64,000 nt of DNA from a virus, in the IMG/VR virus record IMGVR_UViG_3300025000_000065, positions 1 to 64,000 of that record. One strand, 5' to 3'. A program made the translations under genes and the position numbers. Below, piece by piece: positions 52,475 through 64,000 of this stretch (position 1 is the first letter of the stretch; each line of letters opens with the position of its first letter). The notes under the pieces are model-generated. The model did no database searches. It had not been told where the DNA came from and saw only the letters and a list, made by a program, of their open reading frames with translations.

Positions 52475-54568
52475 ATGAAATATGTTTTAAATGAGCCAAA
52501 GGTTGCGTTAGAAAGTTTTCGACATTATTTACGTGGAACTAAAAAGGTTGGTAAAGCACAACCACTATATTCAAAAATTCAAACTCCTTATGGCGAAAAA
52601 ACAATGGGAGAAATGAATGTTGGAGATGAAATTTTTACTATTGATGGAACTGTAACAAAAATCACTGATGTTTTTCCCCAAGGTGTTAAAGATATTTATG
52701 AAGTTACCTTTTCTGATGGAAGCAAAACAAGATGTTCGGAAGATCATTTGTGGTCTGTTAGAACTAAAAAAATGAAGATCCTCGGAAAGGGATTTAATCG
52801 AATTATGACTTTAGGAGAAATTAAAAAAGATTATTTTTCTTTGGAGAAAGACGGCTATAGACATCCTAAATTTGAAATTCCCATTGCAAGTGCCGTAGAA
52901 TTTGAAAAAAGAGAAATTCCATTAGATCCCTATTTGCTAGGATTATTGTTGGGAGATGGATATATCTGTGGAAGAGTTGTTGGATTTTCCAATACAGAAG
53001 AAGATGTTTTAGAGAAAATTGAAAAAATATCTTTTGAAAAATATGGATGTGGTTTTGTTAAAAATTCAGAGCATAATTGCACGCATCATATAAAAAAACC
53101 AGATGGAGAATACAGAAATCCAATTCGAACAAAATTATCAGAATTGGGATTATTGGGATTAAAATCAAAAGATAAATTTATTCCCCAAGAATATTTATAC
53201 AATGATTATTCAACAAGATTATCTATATTACAAGGATTAATGGATACAGATGGACACATTAGTCAAGAGGGACAAGTTAATTTTTCTTCAACATCTTTAC
53301 AATTAATTGAAAATGTAAAGTGGTTAGTTCATTCCTTGGGAGGTCTTGCCACAATTCATGAAGATGCTAGAATTGGAAAAGAATCTTATTACTTAATTAT
53401 TAGAGCAAATGGATTTGTACCCGTCACATCAGAAAAACATTCTCCAAAATTTGAAAAACATAATCCAAATTTAACTAGATTTATTTCCAATATTGAATAC
53501 ATTGGTAAAGAAGAATGTCAATGTATTAAAGTTGAAGATGATTCAGAATTATATTTAACAGATGAGTTTATTGTTACCCATAATAGCACGTTGTTCCGAG
53601 ATTTAATTGTCGAATATTATGGAGATCCAAAATATGGATTAATGATTGCTCCAGGCAATGAAACAGGTTTTAAAGCCTTAGATAATCTGTATGCTATGGA
53701 AGCTCAAACATGGGAAGATTTCTGCGAAATTGTTAATGATTTAGTATTGAATAAGGCAGACAATGAATTTAAGATTATAGCAATTGATACCGTGGATGAA
53801 CTAATTGCAATTGCAGAAGAAAAAGTATTGAAAATTCATTATCAACGAAAAGGCGAAAAGGCAACTTCTATCAATGCTGCTTTAGGTGGATATGGAGCAG
53901 GAAAGAAAATGCTTCGTAAACTCATCAATGATAAAATCAAAGAAGTTGAAAATGCAGGTTATACCTGGTTTTTCGTTGGACATACGAAAGTTCGTGATAT
54001 TAAAGAAAAGGGACAAGAGGAATCATATCAACAATTAACTTCCAATCTTGAGTTTGATTATGATGCATTATTTACAGATAAAGCAGACATTATTGCCTCT
54101 TGTTACATAGAAAGAAACGTAAAAGATAATTCTTTAGAATCAACTACACGATACATTTATTTTCGCCCTAATGGTTTTGTTGATGCAGGAAGTCGTTTCA
54201 AAGATATGCCAGAGCGTGTTCCTATGACTGCACGTGATTACATTAGTGCTTTTGAACAAGGTGCAAAAGGAACTTATACAAAACCATTGACGAAAAAAGA
54301 ATTGGATAAACGAAAGAAACAAGAAGAAACAGAACGTCAAGAACAAGCTCAAAAATTTACTGAAGCCAAAAAATCTAATTTTGAAGGATTAGAAACAGTT
54401 GAAGATTATCACAAAAAGATTCAGGAAATGAAAGAAGCATTGGACTCTGAGACTGCACGTGAAAAAGGTGAGCAATTAAAAGAAGCTGGATTGCCTCTAA
54501 GATTTAAAGAAATTGAAGATCTCGAACAACTAAAATTATTCTTAAAAATCGTTTCTTCAGACGATTAA
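52475..54568 (+). CDS. AAA_24/Sak4-like ATPase (YorG-like) containing an intein
   Basis: Walker A GTKKVGK/ST split by the intein; Walker B IIAIDT; FVGH motif. Confidence 0.8.
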   Translation: MKYVLNEPKVALESFRHYLRGTKKVGKAQPLYSKIQTPYGEKTMGEMNVGDEIFTIDGTVTKITDVFPQGVKDIYEVTFSDGSKTRCSEDHLWSVRTKKMKILGKGFNRIMTLGEIKKDYFSLEKDGYRHPKFEIPIASAVEFEKREIPLDPYLLGLLLGDGYICGRVVGFSNTEEDVLEKIEKISFEKYGCGFVKNSEHNCTHHIKKPDGEYRNPIRTKLSELGLLGLKSKDKFIPQEYLYNDYSTRLSILQGLMDTDGHISQEGQVNFSSTSLQLIENVKWLVHSLGGLATIHEDARIGKESYYLIIRANGFVPVTSEKHSPKFEKHNPNLTRFISNIEYIGKEECQCIKVEDDSELYLTDEFIVTHNSTLFRDLIVEYYGDPKYGLMIAPGNETGFKALDNLYAMEAQTWEDFCEIVNDLVLNKADNEFKIIAIDTVDELIAIAEEKVLKIHYQRKGEKATSINAALGGYGAGKKMLRKLINDKIKEVENAGYTWFFVGHTKVRDIKEKGQEESYQQLTSNLEFDYDALFTDKADIIASCYIERNVKDNSLESTTRYIYFRPNGFVDAGSRFKDMPERVPMTARDYISAFEQGAKGTYTKPLTKKELDKRKKQEETERQEQAQKFTEAKKSNFEGLETVEDYHKKIQEMKEALDSETAREKGEQLKEAGLPLRFKEIEDLEQLKLFLKIVSSDD
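52556..53584 (+). mobile_element. Class 3 intein with LAGLIDADG homing endonuclease (343 aa)
   Basis: Starts AQPL, block B DHLW, block F ECQCI, ends VTHN before Ser+1; LGLLLGDG and LQGLMDTDG motifs. Confidence 0.9.
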
Positions 54569-55427: not shown

Positions 55428-56954
55428 TTGATAGAACAAAAAGACTTAGAAAACATTCCAAATGAAATAGCGTTAGTTGGAGCATTTTATAAAAATCCAG
55501 AATTATATATTTCATATGGATCATCAATTAAATCAAAGTATGATTTTTCAGGAGAGGTATCAAAATTTTTATACGATTGTTTTGAGCTAATATATCAAAC
55601 CATATCTCAAAAAATAAATGAAACAAAAGTCAATTCGTTTATGATCATGGATGATAAAAGATTACAATTATATAAAAAATATGGGGGATATAAAACAATA
55701 GATGATTGGATGAATTTATCTGATCCAGAAGATTTTGATAATTATTTTGGAATATTAAAAAAATATTCTTTGCTAAGAGAATTTTATAGAAGTGGATATA
55801 ATGTTGAAAAACTTATCACTCATAAAAAATTTGATGTTTGGAGCGCACAAGATATTTTCAAAATGTTGCGATCTAAAGTTGATAAGATTCACACTGTTAT
55901 TCTTTCCAATCAAGAAAGTGTTATCTTAAATGAAAACGCAGAGAAAGACATTAAATCGTATGTAATAAAACCACAAGCAGGATTATCTTATCCCTGGATT
56001 GTTATTGATGAAATGTTTAAAGGAATGAGATTAGGAAAAGCTGTATTAACTGGATTCCTTAGCAATGAAGGAAAAACCAGAAATCTTATTATGCTCATGA
56101 GTTATATAGCATTAGTAAAAAATAAACCCGTTTTAATTATGTCAAATGAAATGGATGATGAAGATTTAAAATCCTGCTTGATTACTACAATTGTAAACAA
56201 TGAATGCTTCCAAGAATTACATGGTGTCAAAATGAAGAAAATGGAAGGGGAAATTGTTTTAGGAAAATATAGAGATCAAAGAGGAGCAATTATTCAAAGA
56301 GAAAAAGATGAAAATGATATCTATACCGAAAGGGAAGAAGACTTCATTAACAGACTAGAAAGAGACTCCGAAGAATACAGAAACATAATAAAAATTGGTC
56401 AATGGATTGATAGCAGAAAAGAAAAACTTATATTTTTCAAAAATGTTGGAACAGATTATTCCGATCAAACACTAGAATTTGAAATTCGAAAACATAAACT
56501 TTTATATGGTGTTGATTATGTTGCCTATGACACTATGAAGGGCTATCGAACAGATGATTGGATGACGGTAAAACAATCATTTACTAAGTTAAAAGAATTG
56601 ATGAGTGAATTGAATATTTGGGGATGGTTTGTATTTCAATTAGCTGACCAGGCAGTTCACATGGATATTTTCGATATGAGTAGTAATGAAATTGCCAATG
56701 CCAAACAGATTAAACATCCTGTAGACCACATGCTATTAGGAAAAAGAATTTATCCCTCAGAATATCATAAATATAAATATATTCCAAACTATCAATGGGG
56801 AGATCCTAGACCAATTCCATTAGACCTTTCTAAAAAATATATGGCTTTAAAAGTTGAAAAAAATAGAAGTGGTAACAAAGCAAATTATCCATTATTTGAA
56901 TATGATTTAGATTATAATACTTGGGACAATGTTGGAAGTTTAGTTAGAGCATAA
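55428..56954 (+). CDS. dnaB: DnaB-like replicative helicase
   Basis: Walker A SNEGKT, SNEM, VAYD, FQL, KNRSG arginine finger. Confidence 0.85.
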   Translation: MIEQKDLENIPNEIALVGAFYKNPELYISYGSSIKSKYDFSGEVSKFLYDCFELIYQTISQKINETKVNSFMIMDDKRLQLYKKYGGYKTIDDWMNLSDPEDFDNYFGILKKYSLLREFYRSGYNVEKLITHKKFDVWSAQDIFKMLRSKVDKIHTVILSNQESVILNENAEKDIKSYVIKPQAGLSYPWIVIDEMFKGMRLGKAVLTGFLSNEGKTRNLIMLMSYIALVKNKPVLIMSNEMDDEDLKSCLITTIVNNECFQELHGVKMKKMEGEIVLGKYRDQRGAIIQREKDENDIYTEREEDFINRLERDSEEYRNIIKIGQWIDSRKEKLIFFKNVGTDYSDQTLEFEIRKHKLLYGVDYVAYDTMKGYRTDDWMTVKQSFTKLKELMSELNIWGWFVFQLADQAVHMDIFDMSSNEIANAKQIKHPVDHMLLGKRIYPSEYHKYKYIPNYQWGDPRPIPLDLSKKYMALKVEKNRSGNKANYPLFEYDLDYNTWDNVGSLVRA

Positions 56955-56955
56955 T

Positions 56956-57975
56956 ATGGATATCAAGGAATTGAAAAAATATATTATCGAAAACGATAAA
57001 GTAGAATATATTTTAGAAAATTTAGATTGCCAAAAAATAAAATTTCATAATTCTGGTTATTGGACTTGTGGTAATCCTCCTCCATCAGATAATCCTAATG
57101 CTGTTACAATATATAAAGATAATTTAAAAGTAATTAATTACACAAAAGATATGTCAGAACCATCAGACATATTTACATTGATTGAATATTATAAGAACAT
57201 AAATTTCTTTGAATCTTTAAAATGGATTTGTGATTTATTAGAAATTGATTTCTATAAAGATTCCAATGAAGAACTACCAAAAGAGTTATTGATCACAAAA
57301 CAATTAATTAGTATGCGAACTGGATCAAAGAGAGAGGATGATGATGATACTCCAATAAAACCACTATCAGAAGAAATAATAAAATATTATCCAGCAATTG
57401 GGAATACAATGTTTTTTGATGATGGAATAGATTATCAGACTCAATATGAATTTGGCTTATCATATGATAATGAAAGTAATCGAATATTAATTCCCGTACA
57501 TTCTGAAATAGGAGATTTGGTATCTTATAAAGGAAGATTGTTTAAATATAAATTAAATAAGGACGAACAAAAATATATTTATTTATATCCTTGTCCTAGA
57601 AATAAACTCTTATTCGGATATAATAAAACACATTTGTATATTAAAAAAGAAAATTGGGTTTGGGTTGGAGAAGCTGAGAAATTTGTGTTACAATTATGGT
57701 CTTACGGTTATTATAATTCTATCGCTACAGGTGGTACAAAAATAGGACAGACACAAATAGATAAAATAAGTAGATTGGGAGTTCCAATTTGTTTTTGTTT
57801 TGATAAAGATATAAAAAAAGAAACTATAGAAAAAATATCTGAAAGGTTTACTGATGGAATTGATATTTATGCTATTTTCGATGAAGATAATTTGTTGAAA
57901 GAAAAAGAATCGCCTAGTGATCAAAAAGAAATTTGGGAATTATTGGTTAAAAATAATGTTTACAAAATAAAATAA
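56956..57975 (+). CDS. dnaG: DNA primase (TOPRIM)
   Basis: RILIPVH, KGR, KYIY, VGEAEK, FDKD, KESP.D. Confidence 0.8.
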   Translation: MDIKELKKYIIENDKVEYILENLDCQKIKFHNSGYWTCGNPPPSDNPNAVTIYKDNLKVINYTKDMSEPSDIFTLIEYYKNINFFESLKWICDLLEIDFYKDSNEELPKELLITKQLISMRTGSKREDDDDTPIKPLSEEIIKYYPAIGNTMFFDDGIDYQTQYEFGLSYDNESNRILIPVHSEIGDLVSYKGRLFKYKLNKDEQKYIYLYPCPRNKLLFGYNKTHLYIKKENWVWVGEAEKFVLQLWSYGYYNSIATGGTKIGQTQIDKISRLGVPICFCFDKDIKKETIEKISERFTDGIDIYAIFDEDNLLKEKESPSDQKEIWELLVKNNVYKIK

Positions 57976-58018: not shown

Positions 58019-58717
58019 TTGAAAAAAGAATTCAATAAAGTTTATAACATTGATTTCTTTGAAGGAATGTCTTCTATAAAAAATGATTTTATAGATTTAT
58101 TACTTACAGATCCTCCATATGGAATAAACTTAACTCCTCAAAGACGAAATAGTAAATTTAAAAATACCAAAATAAAAAATGATAATAATTTAGATTGGTT
58201 AGAATCTTTTGTCAATGAATCTTATAGGATTATGAAAAATGCTGGATTTATTTTTTGTAATTGGCAAAAATATGATATTTTCAAACAAGCATTTGAAAAA
58301 AAATTTATTATCAAAAACCTTATAGTTTGGGATAAGATGTGGTTTGGAATGGGAAATAACTTTAGACCCAATCATGAATTTATTATGCTTATATGTAAAA
58401 CAAATATTACAATAAAATCAAATAATTTATCTAATATTTTATCTTTTAGAAGACTTCATCCATCTAAAATGATTCATTCCTGCGAAAAGCCAGTTCCATT
58501 ATTGCAATTATTAATTAATGAAACAACTAACGAAGAAGATATTATTTTAGATCCCTTTGCTGGAAGTGGAAGTTGTCTAGAGGCAAGCTTAAAAACAAAA
58601 AGAAAATTTATTGGATTTGATAATGGCAAAAATGAAAAAACCAATGAACATTGGGCTGATATAGCAAATCAAAGATGTCTTAATGTAAAAATAAAAGGAG
58701 AAACAAATGAATTATAA
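58019..58717 (+). CDS. DNA N6-adenine/N4-cytosine methyltransferase, beta class, orphan
   Basis: TDPPY then H...KP and DPFAGSGS. Confidence 0.9.
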   Translation: MKKEFNKVYNIDFFEGMSSIKNDFIDLLLTDPPYGINLTPQRRNSKFKNTKIKNDNNLDWLESFVNESYRIMKNAGFIFCNWQKYDIFKQAFEKKFIIKNLIVWDKMWFGMGNNFRPNHEFIMLICKTNITIKSNNLSNILSFRRLHPSKMIHSCEKPVPLLQLLINETTNEEDIILDPFAGSGSCLEASLKTKRKFIGFDNGKNEKTNEHWADIANQRCLNVKIKGETNEL

Positions 58718-60428
58718 ATTGCTAAATAAAAATTATAAAGAAGAGTTAGAAAATAAAACAATTAAGGAATTTATTTTATCTAACAGAAATATTGAAAATC
58801 CAAGTATCTATTTATCTCTTACAAAAGACAATGTTCATCATTATTCTTTATTAGAAAATATTGATAAAGCAAAAAATGTCTTGTTAGAAACAATAAAGAA
58901 TAAAGGAAAAATCGGAATTATTGTGGATGTAGATGTAGACGGATTCTCTTCGGCATCTATTCTATATCAATATCTTGCAAGAAATTATGATCAATCAAAA
59001 TTGTCTTATTTTATTCATACTAAAAAACAACATGGTATTTCAGATTTGTTATCTCAAATATTAAAATCAAAAATTAATCTTTTAATTGTTCCAGATGCAG
59101 GAACAAACGACACTAAGGAATGTAAAATTCTTCAAGAAAAAAATATTCAAGTAATTGTATTAGACCATCACCAGGTAGAAGAAGAAAATCCATATGCTAT
59201 TGTTGTAAATAATCAACTTGGAAATTATCCCAATAAATATCTCAGTGGAGCAGGCGTAACTAAAAAATTCCTAGAAAGTTTAGATGATGAATTATGGGAT
59301 GATTCAAGTGACTTTGATGATCTAGTTGCTATATCAATTATTGCAGATTCCATGTCCATATTAGAATATGAAAACCGTTATCTGGTTACAAAGGGTTTAA
59401 AAAATATTAGAAATAAATTTATTCAAGCAATTATAGAAAAACAATCTTATTCAATTGGCAACACAGATAATATCAATGTTAATATAGTTGCATTTTATAT
59501 TTCTCCATTAATCAATGCTTTAATTAGATCGGGTTCTTTAGAAGAAAAAGAATTAATGTTCAGAGCTTTTATTAATGATCCAGAAACTTTTCCATATAAA
59601 AAACGAAGCGGAGAAGAAATTCAGGAAACAATGCAAGAAATGGTTGCCAGATTAGCAACTAATTTAAAAGCCAAACAGAATAGAGAAATTGATAAGTCTT
59701 TAGAATATTTACGTGGATTAATTGATAAGAACGAATGGAATAAAAACAAGATTTTATTTGTTGATGCTGATGGAGTGGATTATAGTTTCACAGGATTAAC
59801 AGCAATGAAACTTGCTTCAGAATATCAAAAGCCTTGTCTATTAATTAGAAAAAATAGGGACAATGTTTTTGCTGGATCTGCGAGAAATTATGGAAATCAA
59901 ATTGAAAACCTTAAAGATTATTTATTGGAAACAGGGTATTTTGAATATGCTCAAGGGCATCCATCGAGTTTCGGATTAGGAATAAAAATTGAAAATATAA
60001 AACCTGCACTAGAAAAATTAAATGAACAATTGAAAGACATTAACTTTGGAGAATTTATTCATTATATTGATTTTGAAATTAGCATAGAAAATTTAAGCGT
60101 TGAAATAATTAAAGATATGAATGAACTTTATGACTATTATGGAAATGGAATTGAAGAAAGTTTAGTGTTAGTAAAAAATATTCCAGTAAATACAACTAAT
60201 ATTGAACTTATGGGAAAAACAGAAGACACATGGAAATTCCTGTATAATAATGAAATTCAATTTATCAAATTTAAAAACAATAAAGATGATGCTATTATGA
60301 AAGCAAGACAAAACGATTGGTCTGGAGCAAATTTAAAAATTAATGCTATCTGTAAATTAAGCATGAACGAATATGGTGGAGTTAGAATTCCTCAATGTAT
60401 TGTTGTTGATTATGAAAGTATAGAATAG
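58707..60428 (+). CDS. recJ: RecJ-like ssDNA exonuclease (DHH family)
   Basis: DVDVDG, HG, PD, LDHH, SGAGV, GSAR, QGH. Confidence 0.9.
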   Translation: MNYKLLNKNYKEELENKTIKEFILSNRNIENPSIYLSLTKDNVHHYSLLENIDKAKNVLLETIKNKGKIGIIVDVDVDGFSSASILYQYLARNYDQSKLSYFIHTKKQHGISDLLSQILKSKINLLIVPDAGTNDTKECKILQEKNIQVIVLDHHQVEEENPYAIVVNNQLGNYPNKYLSGAGVTKKFLESLDDELWDDSSDFDDLVAISIIADSMSILEYENRYLVTKGLKNIRNKFIQAIIEKQSYSIGNTDNINVNIVAFYISPLINALIRSGSLEEKELMFRAFINDPETFPYKKRSGEEIQETMQEMVARLATNLKAKQNREIDKSLEYLRGLIDKNEWNKNKILFVDADGVDYSFTGLTAMKLASEYQKPCLLIRKNRDNVFAGSARNYGNQIENLKDYLLETGYFEYAQGHPSSFGLGIKIENIKPALEKLNEQLKDINFGEFIHYIDFEISIENLSVEIIKDMNELYDYYGNGIEESLVLVKNIPVNTTNIELMGKTEDTWKFLYNNEIQFIKFKNNKDDAIMKARQNDWSGANLKINAICKLSMNEYGGVRIPQCIVVDYESIE

Positions 60429-60435
60429 AATAAAT

Positions 60436-63039
60436 ATGATTACTAATTTTGAAAAAAAATATGTTTATGATATTGAAGTATTTCCTAATTTTTTTTCTTC
60501 CATATTTTTAGATATAGATACTCAAGAAAAAGAAACTTTTATTATATTTCAAAAGAGAAATGATACTAAAGAATTATTCAATTTTTTAAACAGAAATATT
60601 CAAATAATAGGTTATAATAATATTTATTATGATGGTGCTATTTTATATTATATTCTTGAAAACATGGAATTATCAATAGAAGATTTACTAACTAATATAT
60701 TTAGAATATCTAGCAAATTAGTTTCTGATGATTTTAGATTTGATAAAGAGATTAGAGAATTACAATTTCCAGGAAAAGAGTTACCTTATTATCAATTGGA
60801 TTTGATGAAGATACTCGCTTTTGATAAGTTAGGTATAAGTTTAAAGCAAACATCCATTAACTTAAAATGGCATAAGGTACAAGATCTTCCTTTAGAATAT
60901 GATACCCTGATAAAAAAAGAACAAATTAACATTATACTAGATTATAACTTCAATGATGTTTTAATTACTTTCGAGTTATATAAAAAAATATTACCCTTAA
61001 TCAATTTAAGAAAAGATTTAGGAGAAATATTTAAGGTTGATTTAAATAACGCTAGCGATAGCAAAATGGCTAATGTTTTATTAGAAGAGATTTATTCTAA
61101 AGAATTAAATTTAGATATAAATACCATTAAAAATTTACGAACAAAGAGAGATCAATTCATGTTATCTGAATGTATATCAGATAAAATAGAGTTTAAGACA
61201 AATAAATTAAAGAAAATAAAACTAGAAATAGAGAATACTCTTGTTCGTAAAGACACTAATTATAGATATAAAAAGCAAATAGAATTCGCAGGATGTAAAT
61301 ACGAATTAGGTATTGGAGGATTGCATAGTGTAGATGATGCTAGATTGTTTGAAACAGATGATAACTATCTAATACAAGACTGTGATGTTTCTAGTTATTA
61401 TCCTAATATTATATTGAATGAAAAAATTATTCCTGAGCATTTAGATGAAGGATTTCTAAAGGTATTAGACAAAATAACTAAGGAAAGATTAGAAGCTAAA
61501 CACACAGGAGATAAAGTTAAAGCTGATGGTTTAAAAATCACAATCAATTCTATTTTTGGAAAATTAGGAAGTAATACTTTCTGGTTGGAAGATGCTAAAG
61601 CTATGATCAGTGTTACTTTATCTGGTCAATTATATTTATTAAGTTTAATAGAATCTCTAGTTTTAGAAGGAATACCTACCATATCTGCTAATACAGATGG
61701 TATAATTTGTAAAATACCAAAAAATCTAGAAAAAAAATATTATGAAGTATGTAAGCAATGGGAAAAAAGAACAAATTTTGAATTAGAGTACACTCCATAT
61801 TCTTTATATATTAGGTCGGATGTTAATAATTATATTAGCAAAAAGACAGATAATGAAACAAAAGAAAAAGGAAGATATACAAAAGAGATAAGTATTAAAA
61901 AGGGCTATAAATATCCTATTGTTGCTGTAGCAATGTATGAATATTTTATTAATAAAAAACCAATTTTAGAAACGTATAAGGAATCTACTGATATTTTAGA
62001 TTTTTGTATATCTCAAAAAGCTGGGGGAGATTTTCAAGTAGAATTTCATAAAAATGATAATATTGAATTTTTACAAAAAAATAATAGATTTTTTATTAGT
62101 AAAGATGGTGGAAAATTAATAAAAAGAAGAAAGTCAGATAATACTACAATTGGATTATTTGTAGATCAGCTAACTACAGTCATAAATGATTACGATAAAA
62201 ATATATCAATTGATACTTATAATATAGATTATGACTTTTACGTAGAAGAAGCTTACAAATATATTAACGATATTGAACTTAATAAAGATACAAAAATAGA
62301 TTTTTCTATTAATGATATTAGTGAAGACGAAATTAAAATAGAAAAACCTGATCCCGAAATAGAAAAAATATTAAATAAACTAAACAAAATAAAAGGTTTG
62401 AGTACTGGAGTAGTTCAAAATTTGCTAATCATTCATAATAAGTTTAAATCTGGAAGTTTTTTAGACTTATTAGTATTCGCAGAAGACAACTCTTATCTAT
62501 CTACCAAATTTGAAGATCTAATAAAAATAAGATATTTTGAAGAATTTGGAAAAAACAAAAAACTATATGAATTTTATCAAGAATTTACTTCTGGTAAAAA
62601 CAGATATTCCAAAACACACACAGATAAAACAAAAGAAAAAAGGATTTCTGAACTACAAAAAATATGGAATGACATTCCCAATAAAAATTATTCAATTCAA
62701 GAACAAATAAAAAACGAATTAGAAATCTTAAACGAAATTCAAACTAACTTTCCAGTAAACAAAAACTATGCAGTAGCAATAGAATTAGATTTAAAATATT
62801 CTCCAAAAATAGAATTTCAAAATCTCTTGACAGGAGAAAGAAAAACGTTTAAAATAAAGAGTAAGATTTATAATGAATTTTCTATAAATAAAGGTGACAT
62901 TTTATTGTTTAAAAAGGTTATAAAAAAGAATTCTATGACTAAAAACGAAGAAGGTAAATGGGTTCAAATAGAAGATAAATTTGATTTATGGCTAGATGTA
63001 TATTATATTATTAAAGAAAATGATAAATTATCGAAGTAA
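60436..63039 (+). CDS. polB: Family B DNA polymerase with DnaE-like C-terminal extension
   Basis: Exo motifs YDIE, GYN...YD, YNFND; polymerase motifs DVSSYYPN, KITINSIFGK, NTDG; about 220-aa extra C-terminus starting LNKIKGL. Confidence 0.85.
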   Translation: MITNFEKKYVYDIEVFPNFFSSIFLDIDTQEKETFIIFQKRNDTKELFNFLNRNIQIIGYNNIYYDGAILYYILENMELSIEDLLTNIFRISSKLVSDDFRFDKEIRELQFPGKELPYYQLDLMKILAFDKLGISLKQTSINLKWHKVQDLPLEYDTLIKKEQINIILDYNFNDVLITFELYKKILPLINLRKDLGEIFKVDLNNASDSKMANVLLEEIYSKELNLDINTIKNLRTKRDQFMLSECISDKIEFKTNKLKKIKLEIENTLVRKDTNYRYKKQIEFAGCKYELGIGGLHSVDDARLFETDDNYLIQDCDVSSYYPNIILNEKIIPEHLDEGFLKVLDKITKERLEAKHTGDKVKADGLKITINSIFGKLGSNTFWLEDAKAMISVTLSGQLYLLSLIESLVLEGIPTISANTDGIICKIPKNLEKKYYEVCKQWEKRTNFELEYTPYSLYIRSDVNNYISKKTDNETKEKGRYTKEISIKKGYKYPIVAVAMYEYFINKKPILETYKESTDILDFCISQKAGGDFQVEFHKNDNIEFLQKNNRFFISKDGGKLIKRRKSDNTTIGLFVDQLTTVINDYDKNISIDTYNIDYDFYVEEAYKYINDIELNKDTKIDFSINDISEDEIKIEKPDPEIEKILNKLNKIKGLSTGVVQNLLIIHNKFKSGSFLDLLVFAEDNSYLSTKFEDLIKIRYFEEFGKNKKLYEFYQEFTSGKNRYSKTHTDKTKEKRISELQKIWNDIPNKNYSIQEQIKNELEILNEIQTNFPVNKNYAVAIELDLKYSPKIEFQNLLTGERKTFKIKSKIYNEFSINKGDILLFKKVIKKNSMTKNEEGKWVQIEDKFDLWLDVYYIIKENDKLSK

Positions 63040-63065: not shown

Positions 63066-64000
63066 TTGAAAGAATTCAAAATAAAACACTACAAGGAAGA
63101 AGAGGATTTATTGTCTGTGATTTACAATAATAAAAAATCGGATTTACCAATAGATTTTGATCAAGTATATGAATTTACAGGATTTTCAACTCATGAAAGA
63201 TTTTATTCTGATGATTCATCATGGGGTGTTTATACTTTTAATTCAGAAATAGAACTGCCTACTTCCATTATTATTAATGATATAAATATTTTTTCTACAA
63301 AAGAAGATGACAAAATTCTATATCAGGTAACTCTACGTGGAAAAATGCAACAATTAGATCCTTTTTCTAATGTTCCATATAAAGTAAAAGCTAAGTTATC
63401 CAATCATTCAAAATGGGGATATGGATTTGAAGTTATCAGTATTTCTCAAGATACTCCAAAAACCGTTGAAGATACTGGACTATTTTTAAAATCAATTTTA
63501 ACAGAAAATCAAACCAATATACTTTTAGAGATTTATCCTGATATTGTAGATATGGTTATAAATAATCCTAATGTTGATTCAGAAATTGATTTGAATAAAC
63601 TCAATGGAATTAAAGAATTTACCTGGAAAATTATAAAAAATAAAATTTTAGATAATTATTTAATGGCAGATGTATTATCACTTTTATCACCATATGGTAT
63701 TTCACAAAAAAGAATTAAACAACTTTTCAATGAAGAGGCAAACCCATATTTATTAAAAGAAAAATTATTGAACGATCCATATATAATTACTGAAATAGAT
63801 GGTATTGGATTTAAAACTGCTGATGCAATTTCATTAAAAATAAATCCAAGTTTATTGATTTCCGAACAAAGAACAAGAGGATTTGTTAAAGATTATTTAA
63901 AAAATATTGGAGAAGAAAGAGGCGATACCTGGATTTATTTAAGTGAATTAGATTCCGCTATTAAAGAAAATGTTCTTGAGACAGAAATATTGTATAACGA
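63066..64000 (+). CDS. recD2: RecD2-like SF1B helicase, N-terminal part (truncated)
   Basis: TTG start after GGAG; HSKWGYGFE, LNGIKE, NDPYIITEIDGIGFKTADAI, GDTW are RecD2 N-terminal features; helicase motifs lie outside the window. Confidence 0.8.
   Translation, partial: MKEFKIKHYKEEEDLLSVIYNNKKSDLPIDFDQVYEFTGFSTHERFYSDDSSWGVYTFNSEIELPTSIIINDINIFSTKEDDKILYQVTLRGKMQQLDPFSNVPYKVKAKLSNHSKWGYGFEVISISQDTPKTVEDTGLFLKSILTENQTNILLEIYPDIVDMVINNPNVDSEIDLNKLNGIKEFTWKIIKNKILDNYLMADVLSLLSPYGISQKRIKQLFNEEANPYLLKEKLLNDPYIITEIDGIGFKTADAISLKINPSLLISEQRTRGFVKDYLKNIGEERGDTWIYLSELDSAIKENVLETEILYN

What the first reader, a model, noticed from the sequence alone, without database searches (positions are those of the whole stretch)
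60436..63039. Chimeric polymerase: PolB core apparently fused to a retained DnaE C-terminal domain
Seen: complete PolB exonuclease and palm motifs ending near YDFYVEEAYKYI (about 62275), an acidic linker, then about 220 aa from about 62370 (LNKIKGL...FLDLL...LIKIRYFEEFGKNKKL...KYSPKI...GDIL...EGKWV...WLDVY). Knowledge: in SPbeta the gene after helicase-primase-RecJ is a DnaE-type (family C) polymerase, and from memory this tail resembles the HhH/OB C-terminus of such phage DnaE proteins. Inference: an in-place B-for-C swap that kept the old C-terminus, perhaps to preserve replisome contacts. Polymerase swapping in phages is known; an intragenic B/C hybrid would be unusual.
Basis: partly seen in the sequence, partly recalled or inferred. 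Interest (0 to 1): 0.72.

Follow-up and report, generated by a model that had tools for sequence, protein, structure and literature searches.

The report
PolB polymerase carrying a DnaE tail
The only DNA polymerase of this uncultured groundwater phage is a natural hybrid: a complete family B polymerase fused to the DNA-binding end piece (helix-hairpin-helix plus OB fold) of the unrelated bacterial-type DnaE polymerase that its cultured relatives use, showing this end piece can pass between non-homologous replicases.

Summary
ORF 60436-63039 (867 aa) is one intact gene. Residues 1-616 are a family B exonuclease+polymerase core. Residues 617-639 are an acidic linker. Residues 640-860 are a basic HhH domain plus OB fold. 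The tail aligns end-to-end with the last 226 residues of the Geobacillus virus E3 DnaE (37% identity, E 5e-31). Every other tail carrier I checked is a DnaE-type polymerase. The gene sits in the polymerase slot of an SPbeta/E3-type helicase-primase-RecJ-polymerase module. The flanking genes are 37-41% identical to E3's, the same as the tail, so the DnaE catalytic part was probably replaced in place.

The fusion is not private to this phage. At least 95 protein clusters in metagenomes carry it, none of them from a cultured phage. OB-only and tail-less forms are nested inside the clade. It is therefore an old, standard architecture of this PolB clade, not a misassembly.

Trees hint that tails and cores were exchanged more than once (AU p 0.03-0.09); this is not decisive. 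The proposed function, clamp-independent DNA binding and processivity, is inferred and was not tested.

I found no paper describing this hybrid. This scan has already noted the same chimera in other genomes (e1-5769465, e1-5351338, e1-5689051).

The parts
60436..63039 (+). Whole hybrid polymerase gene (867 aa + stop). It is the only DNA polymerase found in the 112-kb virus record.
60436..62283 (+). Family B core, residues 1-616. It holds the 3'-5' exonuclease motifs (D12/E14, N61/D66, Y170/D174) and polymerase motifs A (D317-S320-Y322), B (K367-N371-G375) and C (N419-T420-D421).
   Evidence: phrog_1252 E 7e-143. NCBIfam and PDB Pol II motif B-C match. Motif residues are invariant in 53 homologues. 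The AF2 model (pLDDT 89.9) hits Tgo/KOD/Pol II with Foldseek at E about 1e-13.
62284..62352 (+). Acidic, low-confidence linker, residues 617-639. This is the junction between the two modules.
   Evidence: pI 4.3. pLDDT 44-75 in the tail model and 66-73 in the full model.
62353..62730 (+). Helical HhH domain, residues 640-765. It is homologous to the HHH_6 / beta-binding domain of DnaE.
   Evidence: Pfam PF14579 E 0.0016, below the gathering score here but on record for many homologues. Aligns with E3 DnaE 789-915. Structural alignment to Taq Pol III alpha 875-1126 and Mtb DnaE1 844-1099.
62767..63012 (+). OB-fold domain, residues 778-859. It is homologous to the OB fold that ends phage DnaE proteins.
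   Evidence: AF2 five-strand barrel with pLDDT above 95. OB-fold hits RPA70N/SSB/PriB at Z about 7, plus DnaE. Aligns with E3 DnaE 925-1014.
55428..56954 (+). DnaB-like replicative helicase of the same module.
   Evidence: phrog_19; 40% identical to E3 GP100
56956..57975 (+). DnaG-type primase.
   Evidence: phrog_47; 37% identical to E3 GP98
58707..60428 (+). RecJ-like (YorK-type) ssDNA exonuclease, immediately upstream of the polymerase.
   Evidence: phrog_2484 E 1e-153. Best cultured relatives are E3 at 40% and SPbeta at 37%.
63066..63998 (+). RecD2-like helicase / exonuclease V gene downstream, cut by the window end. It is conserved next to the hybrid in L006, L008, L009, L010 and L019.
   Evidence: phrog_4412, Pfam HHH_RecD2

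Best explanation
The gene encodes the phage's replicative DNA polymerase. It is built from two modules of unrelated origin.

Shown. Module 1 is an apparently active family B exonuclease+polymerase core of the phrog_1252 / Seuratvirus-IMEAB3 type. Module 2, joined by a short acidic linker, is the helix-hairpin-helix domain plus OB fold that forms the C-terminal end of phage DnaE (family C) polymerases. The gene occupies the DnaE slot of an SPbeta / Geobacillus-E3-type replication module (DnaB helicase, DnaG primase, RecJ-like nuclease, polymerase).

Inferred. In an ancestor of this PolB clade, the PHP-palm-thumb-fingers part of a resident DnaE gene was replaced by a PolB core. The break lay at the fingers / HhH domain boundary, and the 3' end of the old gene stayed in frame. 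The hybrid then persisted and diversified. Some descendants lost the HhH domain (about 750 aa, OB only) or the whole tail (about 620-650 aa).

Inferred function. The basic tail (pI 9.2, against 5.4 for the core) would hold duplex DNA through the HhH motifs and single-stranded template through the OB fold. This would give a clamp-less polymerase its grip on DNA, that is its processivity. No sliding clamp gene and no recognisable clamp-binding motif were found.
For: The ORF is intact, with both modules modelled confidently (pLDDT 89.8 and 89.9).

Core. It matches phrog_1252 at E 7e-143. It is about 30% identical to tail-less PolBs of cultured phages. It has the family B fold, and the catalytic motifs are invariant.

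Tail. It is 37% identical to, and co-terminal with, the last 226 aa of E3 DnaE, E 5e-31. The tail hits 72 phage records under DnaE annotations. It aligns structurally with the HhH+OB region of Taq and M. tuberculosis DnaE, Z 6.9-8.5 over 175-205 residues. All 18 long non-PolB tail carriers scanned with Pfam are DnaE-type (PHP, DNA_pol3_alpha, finger, HHH_6), and 24 shorter fragments match DnaE upstream of the tail.

Synteny. The order matches E3. Identities to E3 are g350 38%, DnaB 40%, primase 37%, RecJ 41% and tail 37%, all colinear.

Only polymerase. The 112-kb, 93%-complete record has no DnaE palm and no beta clamp.

Distribution. 95 of 126 PolB homologues carry the tail. The PolB core tree has a 100%-supported ingroup in which HhH+OB forms are basal and OB-only and tail-less forms are nested, with tail-less outgroups.

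Charge contrast.
Against: No biochemical evidence exists for any function of the tail.

Pfam HHH_6 scores below its gathering threshold on this particular protein.

The fused gene also occurs in phages with a different replication module (L016, L022). The window's lineage could therefore have received the already-fused gene as a whole.

The DnaE phages whose tails are nearest in the tail tree do not have nearer flanking genes than E3 does.

The core tree is a FastTree with weak support at the node that joins the reduced forms (37-89%).
Confidence: 0.8

Rival explanations
1. The tail is mainly a protein-protein adaptor. It was kept because it docks the polymerase onto partners of the old DnaE replisome, such as the phage DnaB helicase, the RecJ-like nuclease or a host clamp. 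It does not exclude DNA binding.
For: The tail is conserved across two non-homologous catalytic cores. A DnaB-like helicase is the one replication partner present in every context examined: the window, E3, L016 and L022. In bacterial Pol III alpha the equivalent region carries the clamp-binding site (my own knowledge of the family).
Against: No clamp gene is present in the phage, and I could not recognise a QxxLF-type motif in the tail alignments. RecJ is absent from the second genomic context, which still keeps the tail. The PolA that replaced DnaE at the same slot in Bacillus phage Goe12 works without any tail.
Confidence: 0.25
2. A whole-gene swap of a ready-made hybrid. The PolB-tail fusion arose once elsewhere. 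The complete fused gene later replaced a DnaE gene in the SPbeta/E3-like module of this lineage, so nothing was 'kept' in this genome.
For: The hybrid is ancestral to a large PolB clade and occurs in at least two different replication modules. In-situ whole-gene polymerase swaps are documented (PMC11348598).
Against: The tail-to-E3 identity (37%) equals that of the flanking genes (37-41%). The tail tree interleaves PolB-borne and DnaE-borne tails instead of giving one PolB clade. Starred branches force at least 3 changes, and the AU test gives p 0.094 and 0.029.
Confidence: 0.25
3. The hybrid is an assembly or gene-calling artefact: a chimeric contig that joins a PolB phage to a DnaE phage.
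For: Logan contigs of the source and related runs are fragmentary, and none spans 62335-62475.
Against: The same uninterrupted ORF is found in independent samples at 91-92% identity (L006, L009, L086) and at 40-76% identity in dozens of other contigs up to 140 kb. The linker and both modules co-vary in a 53-sequence alignment.
Confidence: 0.01
4. The tail is a generic HhH+OB DNA-binding module that only resembles DnaE by convergence, or DnaE phages took it from PolB.
For: HhH and OB folds are common. Many OB hits (RPA70N, SSB) score as well as DnaE for that sub-domain.
Against: There is colinear sequence identity of 35-45% to DnaE C-termini over both domains. HHH_6 followed by an OB fold is the standard architecture of cellular DnaE, as seen in the Taq and Mtb structures. 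More distant PolBs lack the tail.
Confidence: 0.03

Closest known systems
Phage DnaE (family C) polymerases of Geobacillus virus E3 (GP96), Tsamsa-like Bacillus phages, phiCD211/LIBA2945 Clostridioides phages and SPbeta YorL
   Same: They hold the same slot after helicase-primase-RecJ. The C-terminal HhH+OB module is the same and ends at the same residue (37% identity to E3). They likewise lack a tau-binding domain and a phage clamp.
   Different: Their catalytic part is PHP + Pol-beta-like palm + fingers (about 790 aa). Here it is absent and replaced by a non-homologous family B exonuclease/polymerase core.
Tail-less phage family B polymerases of phrog_1252 (Escherichia phages Seurat/CAjan, Acinetobacter phage IMEAB3, Erwinia phage AH03)
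   Same: The exonuclease and polymerase core is homologous (about 30% identity over residues 1-620).
   Different: They stop about 10-25 residues after the core. None of the 986 matching cultured-phage records covers the tail.
In-situ DNA polymerase swapping in Caudoviricetes (Yutin et al. 2024, Virol J, PMC11348598)
   Same: One polymerase family replaces another without changing the neighbouring genes, including in the SPbeta clade (PolC to PolA).
   Different: Those are whole-gene or multi-gene replacements. No PolC-to-PolB case in this clade and no intragenic hybrid is reported there. The Goe12 PolA at this slot has no tail.
Beta-binding (HhH) and OB domains of bacterial Pol III alpha (Taq 2HPI/3E0D/4IQJ, M. 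tuberculosis DnaE1 7PU7)
   Same: The same two-domain fold in the same order. In the Taq ternary complex these domains contact DNA (my knowledge of the literature).
   Different: Sequence identity is only 9-17%. I found no clamp-binding motif and no C-terminal tau-binding domain.
Engineered polymerase chimeras with added DNA-binding domains (HhH-fused Taq/Pfu 'TopoTaq', HhH-fused phi29 polymerase, Sso7d fusions), recalled from memory
   Same: The design principle is the same: a non-specific DNA-binding domain tethered to the C-terminus of a polymerase to raise processivity.
   Different: Those are laboratory constructs. This one is natural, conserved and built from another replicase's own accessory module.

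Membership tests
Family B DNA polymerase (PolB) | 3'-5' exonuclease motifs Exo I (DxE), Exo II (Nx2-3[FY]D), Exo III (Yx3D) | tested here: met
   D12/E14, N61/D66 and Y170/D174 are invariant in 53 homologues.
Family B DNA polymerase (PolB) | Polymerase motifs A (DxxSLYPS-like), B (Kx3NSxYG) and C (DTD) | tested here: met
   DVSSYYP (D317), KITINSIFG (K367, N371) and NTDG (D421) are present. Motif C is the variant N-T-D, invariant in the clade. It aligns with E. coli Pol II motifs B-C.
Family B DNA polymerase (PolB) | Family B fold | tested here: met
   Foldseek of the full model gives Tgo, KOD, Pol II and Pol alpha at E 3e-13 to 4e-11 over more than 700 columns.
Family B DNA polymerase (PolB) | Match to Pfam DNA_pol_B / DNA_pol_B_exo models | tested here: not met
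   There is no Pfam PolB hit at E <= 1. The clade is too divergent for those models, and PHROG 1252 covers it instead.
Family C DNA polymerase (DnaE / Pol III alpha) | PHP domain, Pol-beta-like palm (PF07733) and fingers (PF17657) | tested here: not met
   None is found in the protein or anywhere in the virus record. It is therefore not a DnaE.
Family C DNA polymerase (DnaE / Pol III alpha) | C-terminal HHH_6 domain followed by an OB fold | tested here: met
   HHH_6 covers residues 629-709 (E 0.0016-0.009, sub-threshold), and many homologues carry it on record. The OB fold is seen in the model. The region aligns with DnaE structures and with E3 DnaE.
Family C DNA polymerase (DnaE / Pol III alpha) | Internal beta-clamp-binding motif and tau-binding C-terminal domain | tested here: inconclusive
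   The protein ends right after the OB fold, so there is no room for a tau-binding domain. I saw no QxxLF-like motif in the alignments, but I ran no formal motif search.
SPbeta / Geobacillus-E3-type replication module | Gene order DnaB helicase - DnaG primase - RecJ-like nuclease - polymerase, with homologous flanks | tested here: met
   An extra methyltransferase gene sits between primase and RecJ here.

The most novel reading that the evidence does not exclude
The HhH+OB tail is a portable replicase adaptor, and non-homologous polymerase cores have been exchanged around it repeatedly. The tail, together with the conserved upstream RecJ gene, would act as homology arms. Recombination between co-infecting phages would then swap a PolB core for a DnaE core, or the reverse, as a cassette. 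That would explain why polymerase swaps in phages occur 'in situ'. Under this reading the PolB-borne tails are not one lineage but were captured from different DnaE genes.
Probability: 0.3. Interest if true: 0.8.

Novelty: new variant of a known kind. Interest (0 to 1): 0.62.

Why it matters
Family B and family C polymerases have unrelated catalytic folds, and replacement of one by the other has so far been described only gene by gene. Here only the catalytic part was replaced and the accessory DNA-binding end of the old enzyme was kept. This shows that the end piece works independently of which engine it is attached to.

That gives a direct experimental handle on what the poorly understood C-terminus of phage DnaE does. 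It offers a mechanism (shared flanks as recombination arms) for in-situ polymerase swapping. It also provides natural, clamp-independent PolB enzymes with a built-in DNA-binding module, in three grades (HhH+OB, OB only, none). These can be compared directly for processivity and may be useful as reagents.

Tried and rejected
1. Complex prediction of the tail (alignment A1) with the phage DnaB helicase (alignment A3) returned 'no answer'. It is neither support nor evidence against binding.

2. Read laying on the junction returned only Logan contigs, which are short and patchy. None bridges 62335-62475. One exact 159-nt piece covers 62176-62334, from the core end into the linker. I relied on independent contigs instead.

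I therefore could not fetch the contigs of the DnaE proteins with the nearest tails (P0132, P0133).

4. The search for related loci with P0132 hit only intein pieces. With P0135 and P0133 it gave DnaE loci whose flanks are no closer to the window than E3's.

5. The search for related loci with tail alignment A1 failed because no stretch was conserved enough.

6. Lactococcus phage WRP3 was inspected for a split DnaE next to RecJ. The polymerase is not in the fetched stretch.

7. Literature searches for a described PolB-DnaE hybrid found nothing.

8. The genome-contig scan gave only short contigs binned into MAGs of very different phyla, so I name no host.
Full report
OBSERVATION. The window has a single open frame at 60436..63039 (+), 867 aa. 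The PolB motifs end with YDFYVEEAYKYI at residues 602-613. A 23-residue acidic stretch follows (617-639; pI 4.3). A tail of about 225 residues then begins at LNKIKGL. The window belongs to an IMG/VR virus record of 111,969 bp, estimated 93% complete, from groundwater metagenomes.

THE CORE. Residues 4-618 match PHROG 1252 'DNA polymerase' at E 7e-143. Pfam's PolB models do not detect the core. NCBIfam and PDB sequence searches align residues 342-439 with motifs B and C of E. coli Pol II. The AlphaFold2 model of the whole protein (53-sequence alignment, mean pLDDT 89.9) matches archaeal, bacterial and eukaryotic family B polymerases with Foldseek at E about 1e-13 over more than 700 columns. The exonuclease motifs (D12/E14, N61/D66, Y170/D174) and polymerase motifs A, B and C (D317, K367/N371, D421) are invariant in 53 homologues. 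Motif C reads N-T-D instead of D-T-D throughout the clade. The nearest cultured-phage proteins are tail-less PolBs of Seurat/CAjan-like coliphages, Acinetobacter phage IMEAB3 and Erwinia phage AH03. They are about 30% identical over residues 1-620, and none of the 986 matching records covers the tail.

THE TAIL. Taken alone, residues 619-867 hit Pfam HHH_6 (PF14579, the helix-hairpin-helix domain of Pol III alpha). The score is below the gathering threshold here, but the domain is on record for many homologues. The tail also hits PHROG 11119 and positions 855-1067 of the 1190-position DnaE family PHROG 405. tblastn against 50,697 phage records finds 72 records. The listed hits lie under genes annotated DNA polymerase III alpha / DnaE in Geobacillus virus E3, Tsamsa-like Bacillus phages and phiCD211/LIBA2945-type Clostridioides phages. 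BLASTP aligns residues 639-864 with residues 789-1014 of the 1014-aa E3 DnaE. That is its very end, at 37% identity and E 5e-31.

The tail model (59-sequence alignment, pLDDT 89.8) shows three parts: a disordered linker, a helical domain (640-765) and a five-stranded OB barrel (778-859). The only multi-domain structural matches are DnaE structures. These are Taq Pol III alpha residues 875-1126 and M. tuberculosis DnaE1 residues 844-1099, at Z 6.9-8.5 with 175-205 aligned residues. The OB part alone also resembles RPA70N, SSB and PriB. The homology starts at about profile position 12 of HHH_6, so the break lies at the fingers / HhH domain boundary of DnaE.

WHO ELSE HAS THE TAIL. An exhaustive phmmer search of 1.84 billion cluster representatives finds 368 proteins with the tail. 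All of them fall into three groups:
- PolB hybrids like this one.
- DnaE-type polymerases. Eighteen long ones scanned with Pfam all have PHP, DNA_pol3_alpha, finger and HHH_6 domains, often with inteins. Another 24 fragments match DnaE sequence upstream of the tail.
- Short fragments without informative upstream sequence.
I found no PolA carrier.

CONTEXT. The genes upstream are a DnaB-like helicase, a DnaG-type primase, a DNA methyltransferase and a RecJ-like (YorK-type) nuclease. A RecD2-like gene lies downstream. The closest cultured relatives of the RecJ-like protein are E3 (40%) and SPbeta (37%). E3 has the order helicase - small ORF - primase - RecJ - DnaE. Against the E3 locus the window's proteins are colinear: g350 38%, DnaB 40%, primase 37%, RecJ 41%, tail 37%. 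The tail is thus as diverged from E3 as its neighbours are, while the catalytic parts are non-homologous. This is the pattern expected if only the 5' part of a resident DnaE gene was replaced. The virus record has no DnaE palm and no beta-clamp gene, so the hybrid is its only polymerase. Bacillus phage Goe12 is the published case of PolA replacing PolC at this same slot (PMC11348598). Its PolA has no tail and no remnant of one.

DISTRIBUTION AND HISTORY. Of 126 PolB homologues retrieved, 95 carry the tail at 40-92% identity and about 99% coverage. Independent IMG/VR and MAG contigs carry the same ORF at 91-92% identity (L006, L009, L086). L006, L008, L009, L010 and L019 share the whole module. 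This rules out misassembly.

Other hybrids (L016, L022 and others) sit in a different module with an AEP primase, DnaB and a Cas4-like nuclease, and no RecJ. A profile of the tail shows that homologues of about 750 aa keep only the OB part (E 1e-7 to 7e-14). Homologues of about 620-650 aa have no tail.

In a PolB core tree rooted on distant tail-less PolBs, the ingroup has 100% support. HhH+OB forms are basal in it, and the OB-only and tail-less forms are nested (FastTree, weak support at some inner nodes). This favours one ancient acquisition followed by reduction.

The tail tree tells a less simple story. PolB-borne and DnaE-borne tails are interleaved, and well-supported branches force at least three changes. 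An AU test of 'all PolB tails on one side of a branch' gives p 0.094. After dropping one long fragment and adding the E3 tail it gives p 0.029. I read this as suggestive, not decisive, evidence that cores and tails were recombined more than once.

MECHANISM. Shown: the architecture, the homology of each module, the intact catalytic motifs, the synteny, and the absence of another polymerase or a clamp gene.

Inferred: the tail is a DNA-binding and processivity module. Three things support this. First, it is basic (pI 9.2) on an acidic core (pI 5.4). Second, it keeps the two HhH hairpins (IKGLSTGV and YFEEFG, the latter corresponding to the GAFDxLG hairpin of DnaE) and a conserved KYSPK strand in the OB barrel. 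Third, in Pol III alpha structures these domains lie on the DNA (my knowledge of the Taq ternary complex). A role as a docking site for replisome partners is possible and not exclusive. My single complex prediction gave no answer.

COMPARISON WITH WHAT IS KNOWN. In-situ swaps of whole polymerase genes are established. These include PolA/PolB, and PolC to PolA in the SPbeta clade (PMC11348598). That paper reports no PolC-to-PolB case and no intragenic hybrid. Kazlauskas and Venclovas (PMC3201878) noted that the region after the fingers of viral PolC is not recognisably like that of E. coli. The models here show it is HhH+OB without a tau-binding domain. The PolB survey of 2020 (PMC7544198) does not contain the terms HhH, helix-hairpin-helix or OB-fold. 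I found no paper that describes this hybrid.

Follow-up agents of this scan have reported the same chimera in other genomes (e1-5769465, e1-5351338, e1-5689051). Their conclusions agree with mine but are not independent evidence.

VERDICT. It needs correcting in scope, because this is an old architecture that is standard in the clade and is not limited to this one module. I class it as a new variant of a known kind, of real interest to people who study replisome evolution and polymerase engineering. Its function and the number of exchange events remain open.

Noticed in passing
P0132, P0133, P0150, P0162, P0127, P0186, P0198, P0239, P0243 (DnaE homologues): Many phage DnaE proteins that share this tail carry an intein, often with an HNH or LAGLIDADG endonuclease, between the fingers domain and HHH_6. 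It ends about 70 residues upstream of the position equivalent to the PolB/tail junction. A homing-endonuclease cut site so near the breakpoint could favour recombination there.
   Followed up: partly
window 61690-61698 (residues 419-421): Polymerase motif C reads N-T-D instead of the canonical D-T-D. The Asn is invariant in all 53 aligned homologues.
   Followed up: partly
window 52475-54568 (+): This 697-aa protein lies upstream of the helicase. PHROG hits are spread over 'terminase large subunit' (phrog_19299, full length), DnaC-like loader, primase and Sak4-like annealing protein. It is probably a two-ATPase replication/recombination protein rather than a terminase. It is conserved in L006, L008, L010 and L019.
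   Followed up: no
window 58019-58717 (+): A DNA methyltransferase gene is inserted between primase and RecJ relative to Geobacillus virus E3. Its end overlaps the RecJ start by 11 nt.
   Followed up: no
P0122 (303 aa): Residues 104-303 of this metagenome protein are 94% identical to the window's tail. Its first roughly 100 residues are unrelated to PolB or DnaE. It may be a rearranged gene, a chimeric contig or a wrong gene call.
   Followed up: no
P0208, P0211, P0233, P0258 and PHROG 11119 (299 positions): Short proteins start with Met only 12-17 residues before the tail, and there is a PHROG family of tail length. In some phages the HhH+OB module may therefore be a separate gene (a split DnaE).
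   Followed up: no
P0057 (1057 aa): This PolB of the same clade has a 440-residue extension that contains a canonical PF01336 OB fold (residues 702-776) but does not match the tail profile. It represents a fourth C-terminal architecture.
   Followed up: no
P0147 (3828 aa) and P0259 (810 aa): These large proteins match a 45-70-residue piece of the OB region 18 and 8 times. They look like repeat proteins and are probably unrelated to polymerases.
   Followed up: no
L086 (DIUG01000008.1), L088-L091: Copies of the hybrid lie on short contigs binned into MAGs of Patescibacteria (92% identical), TM6, Saccharibacteria, Holosporales and Caldisericia. These are probably phage contigs swept into bins and are not a reliable host signal.
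   Followed up: no
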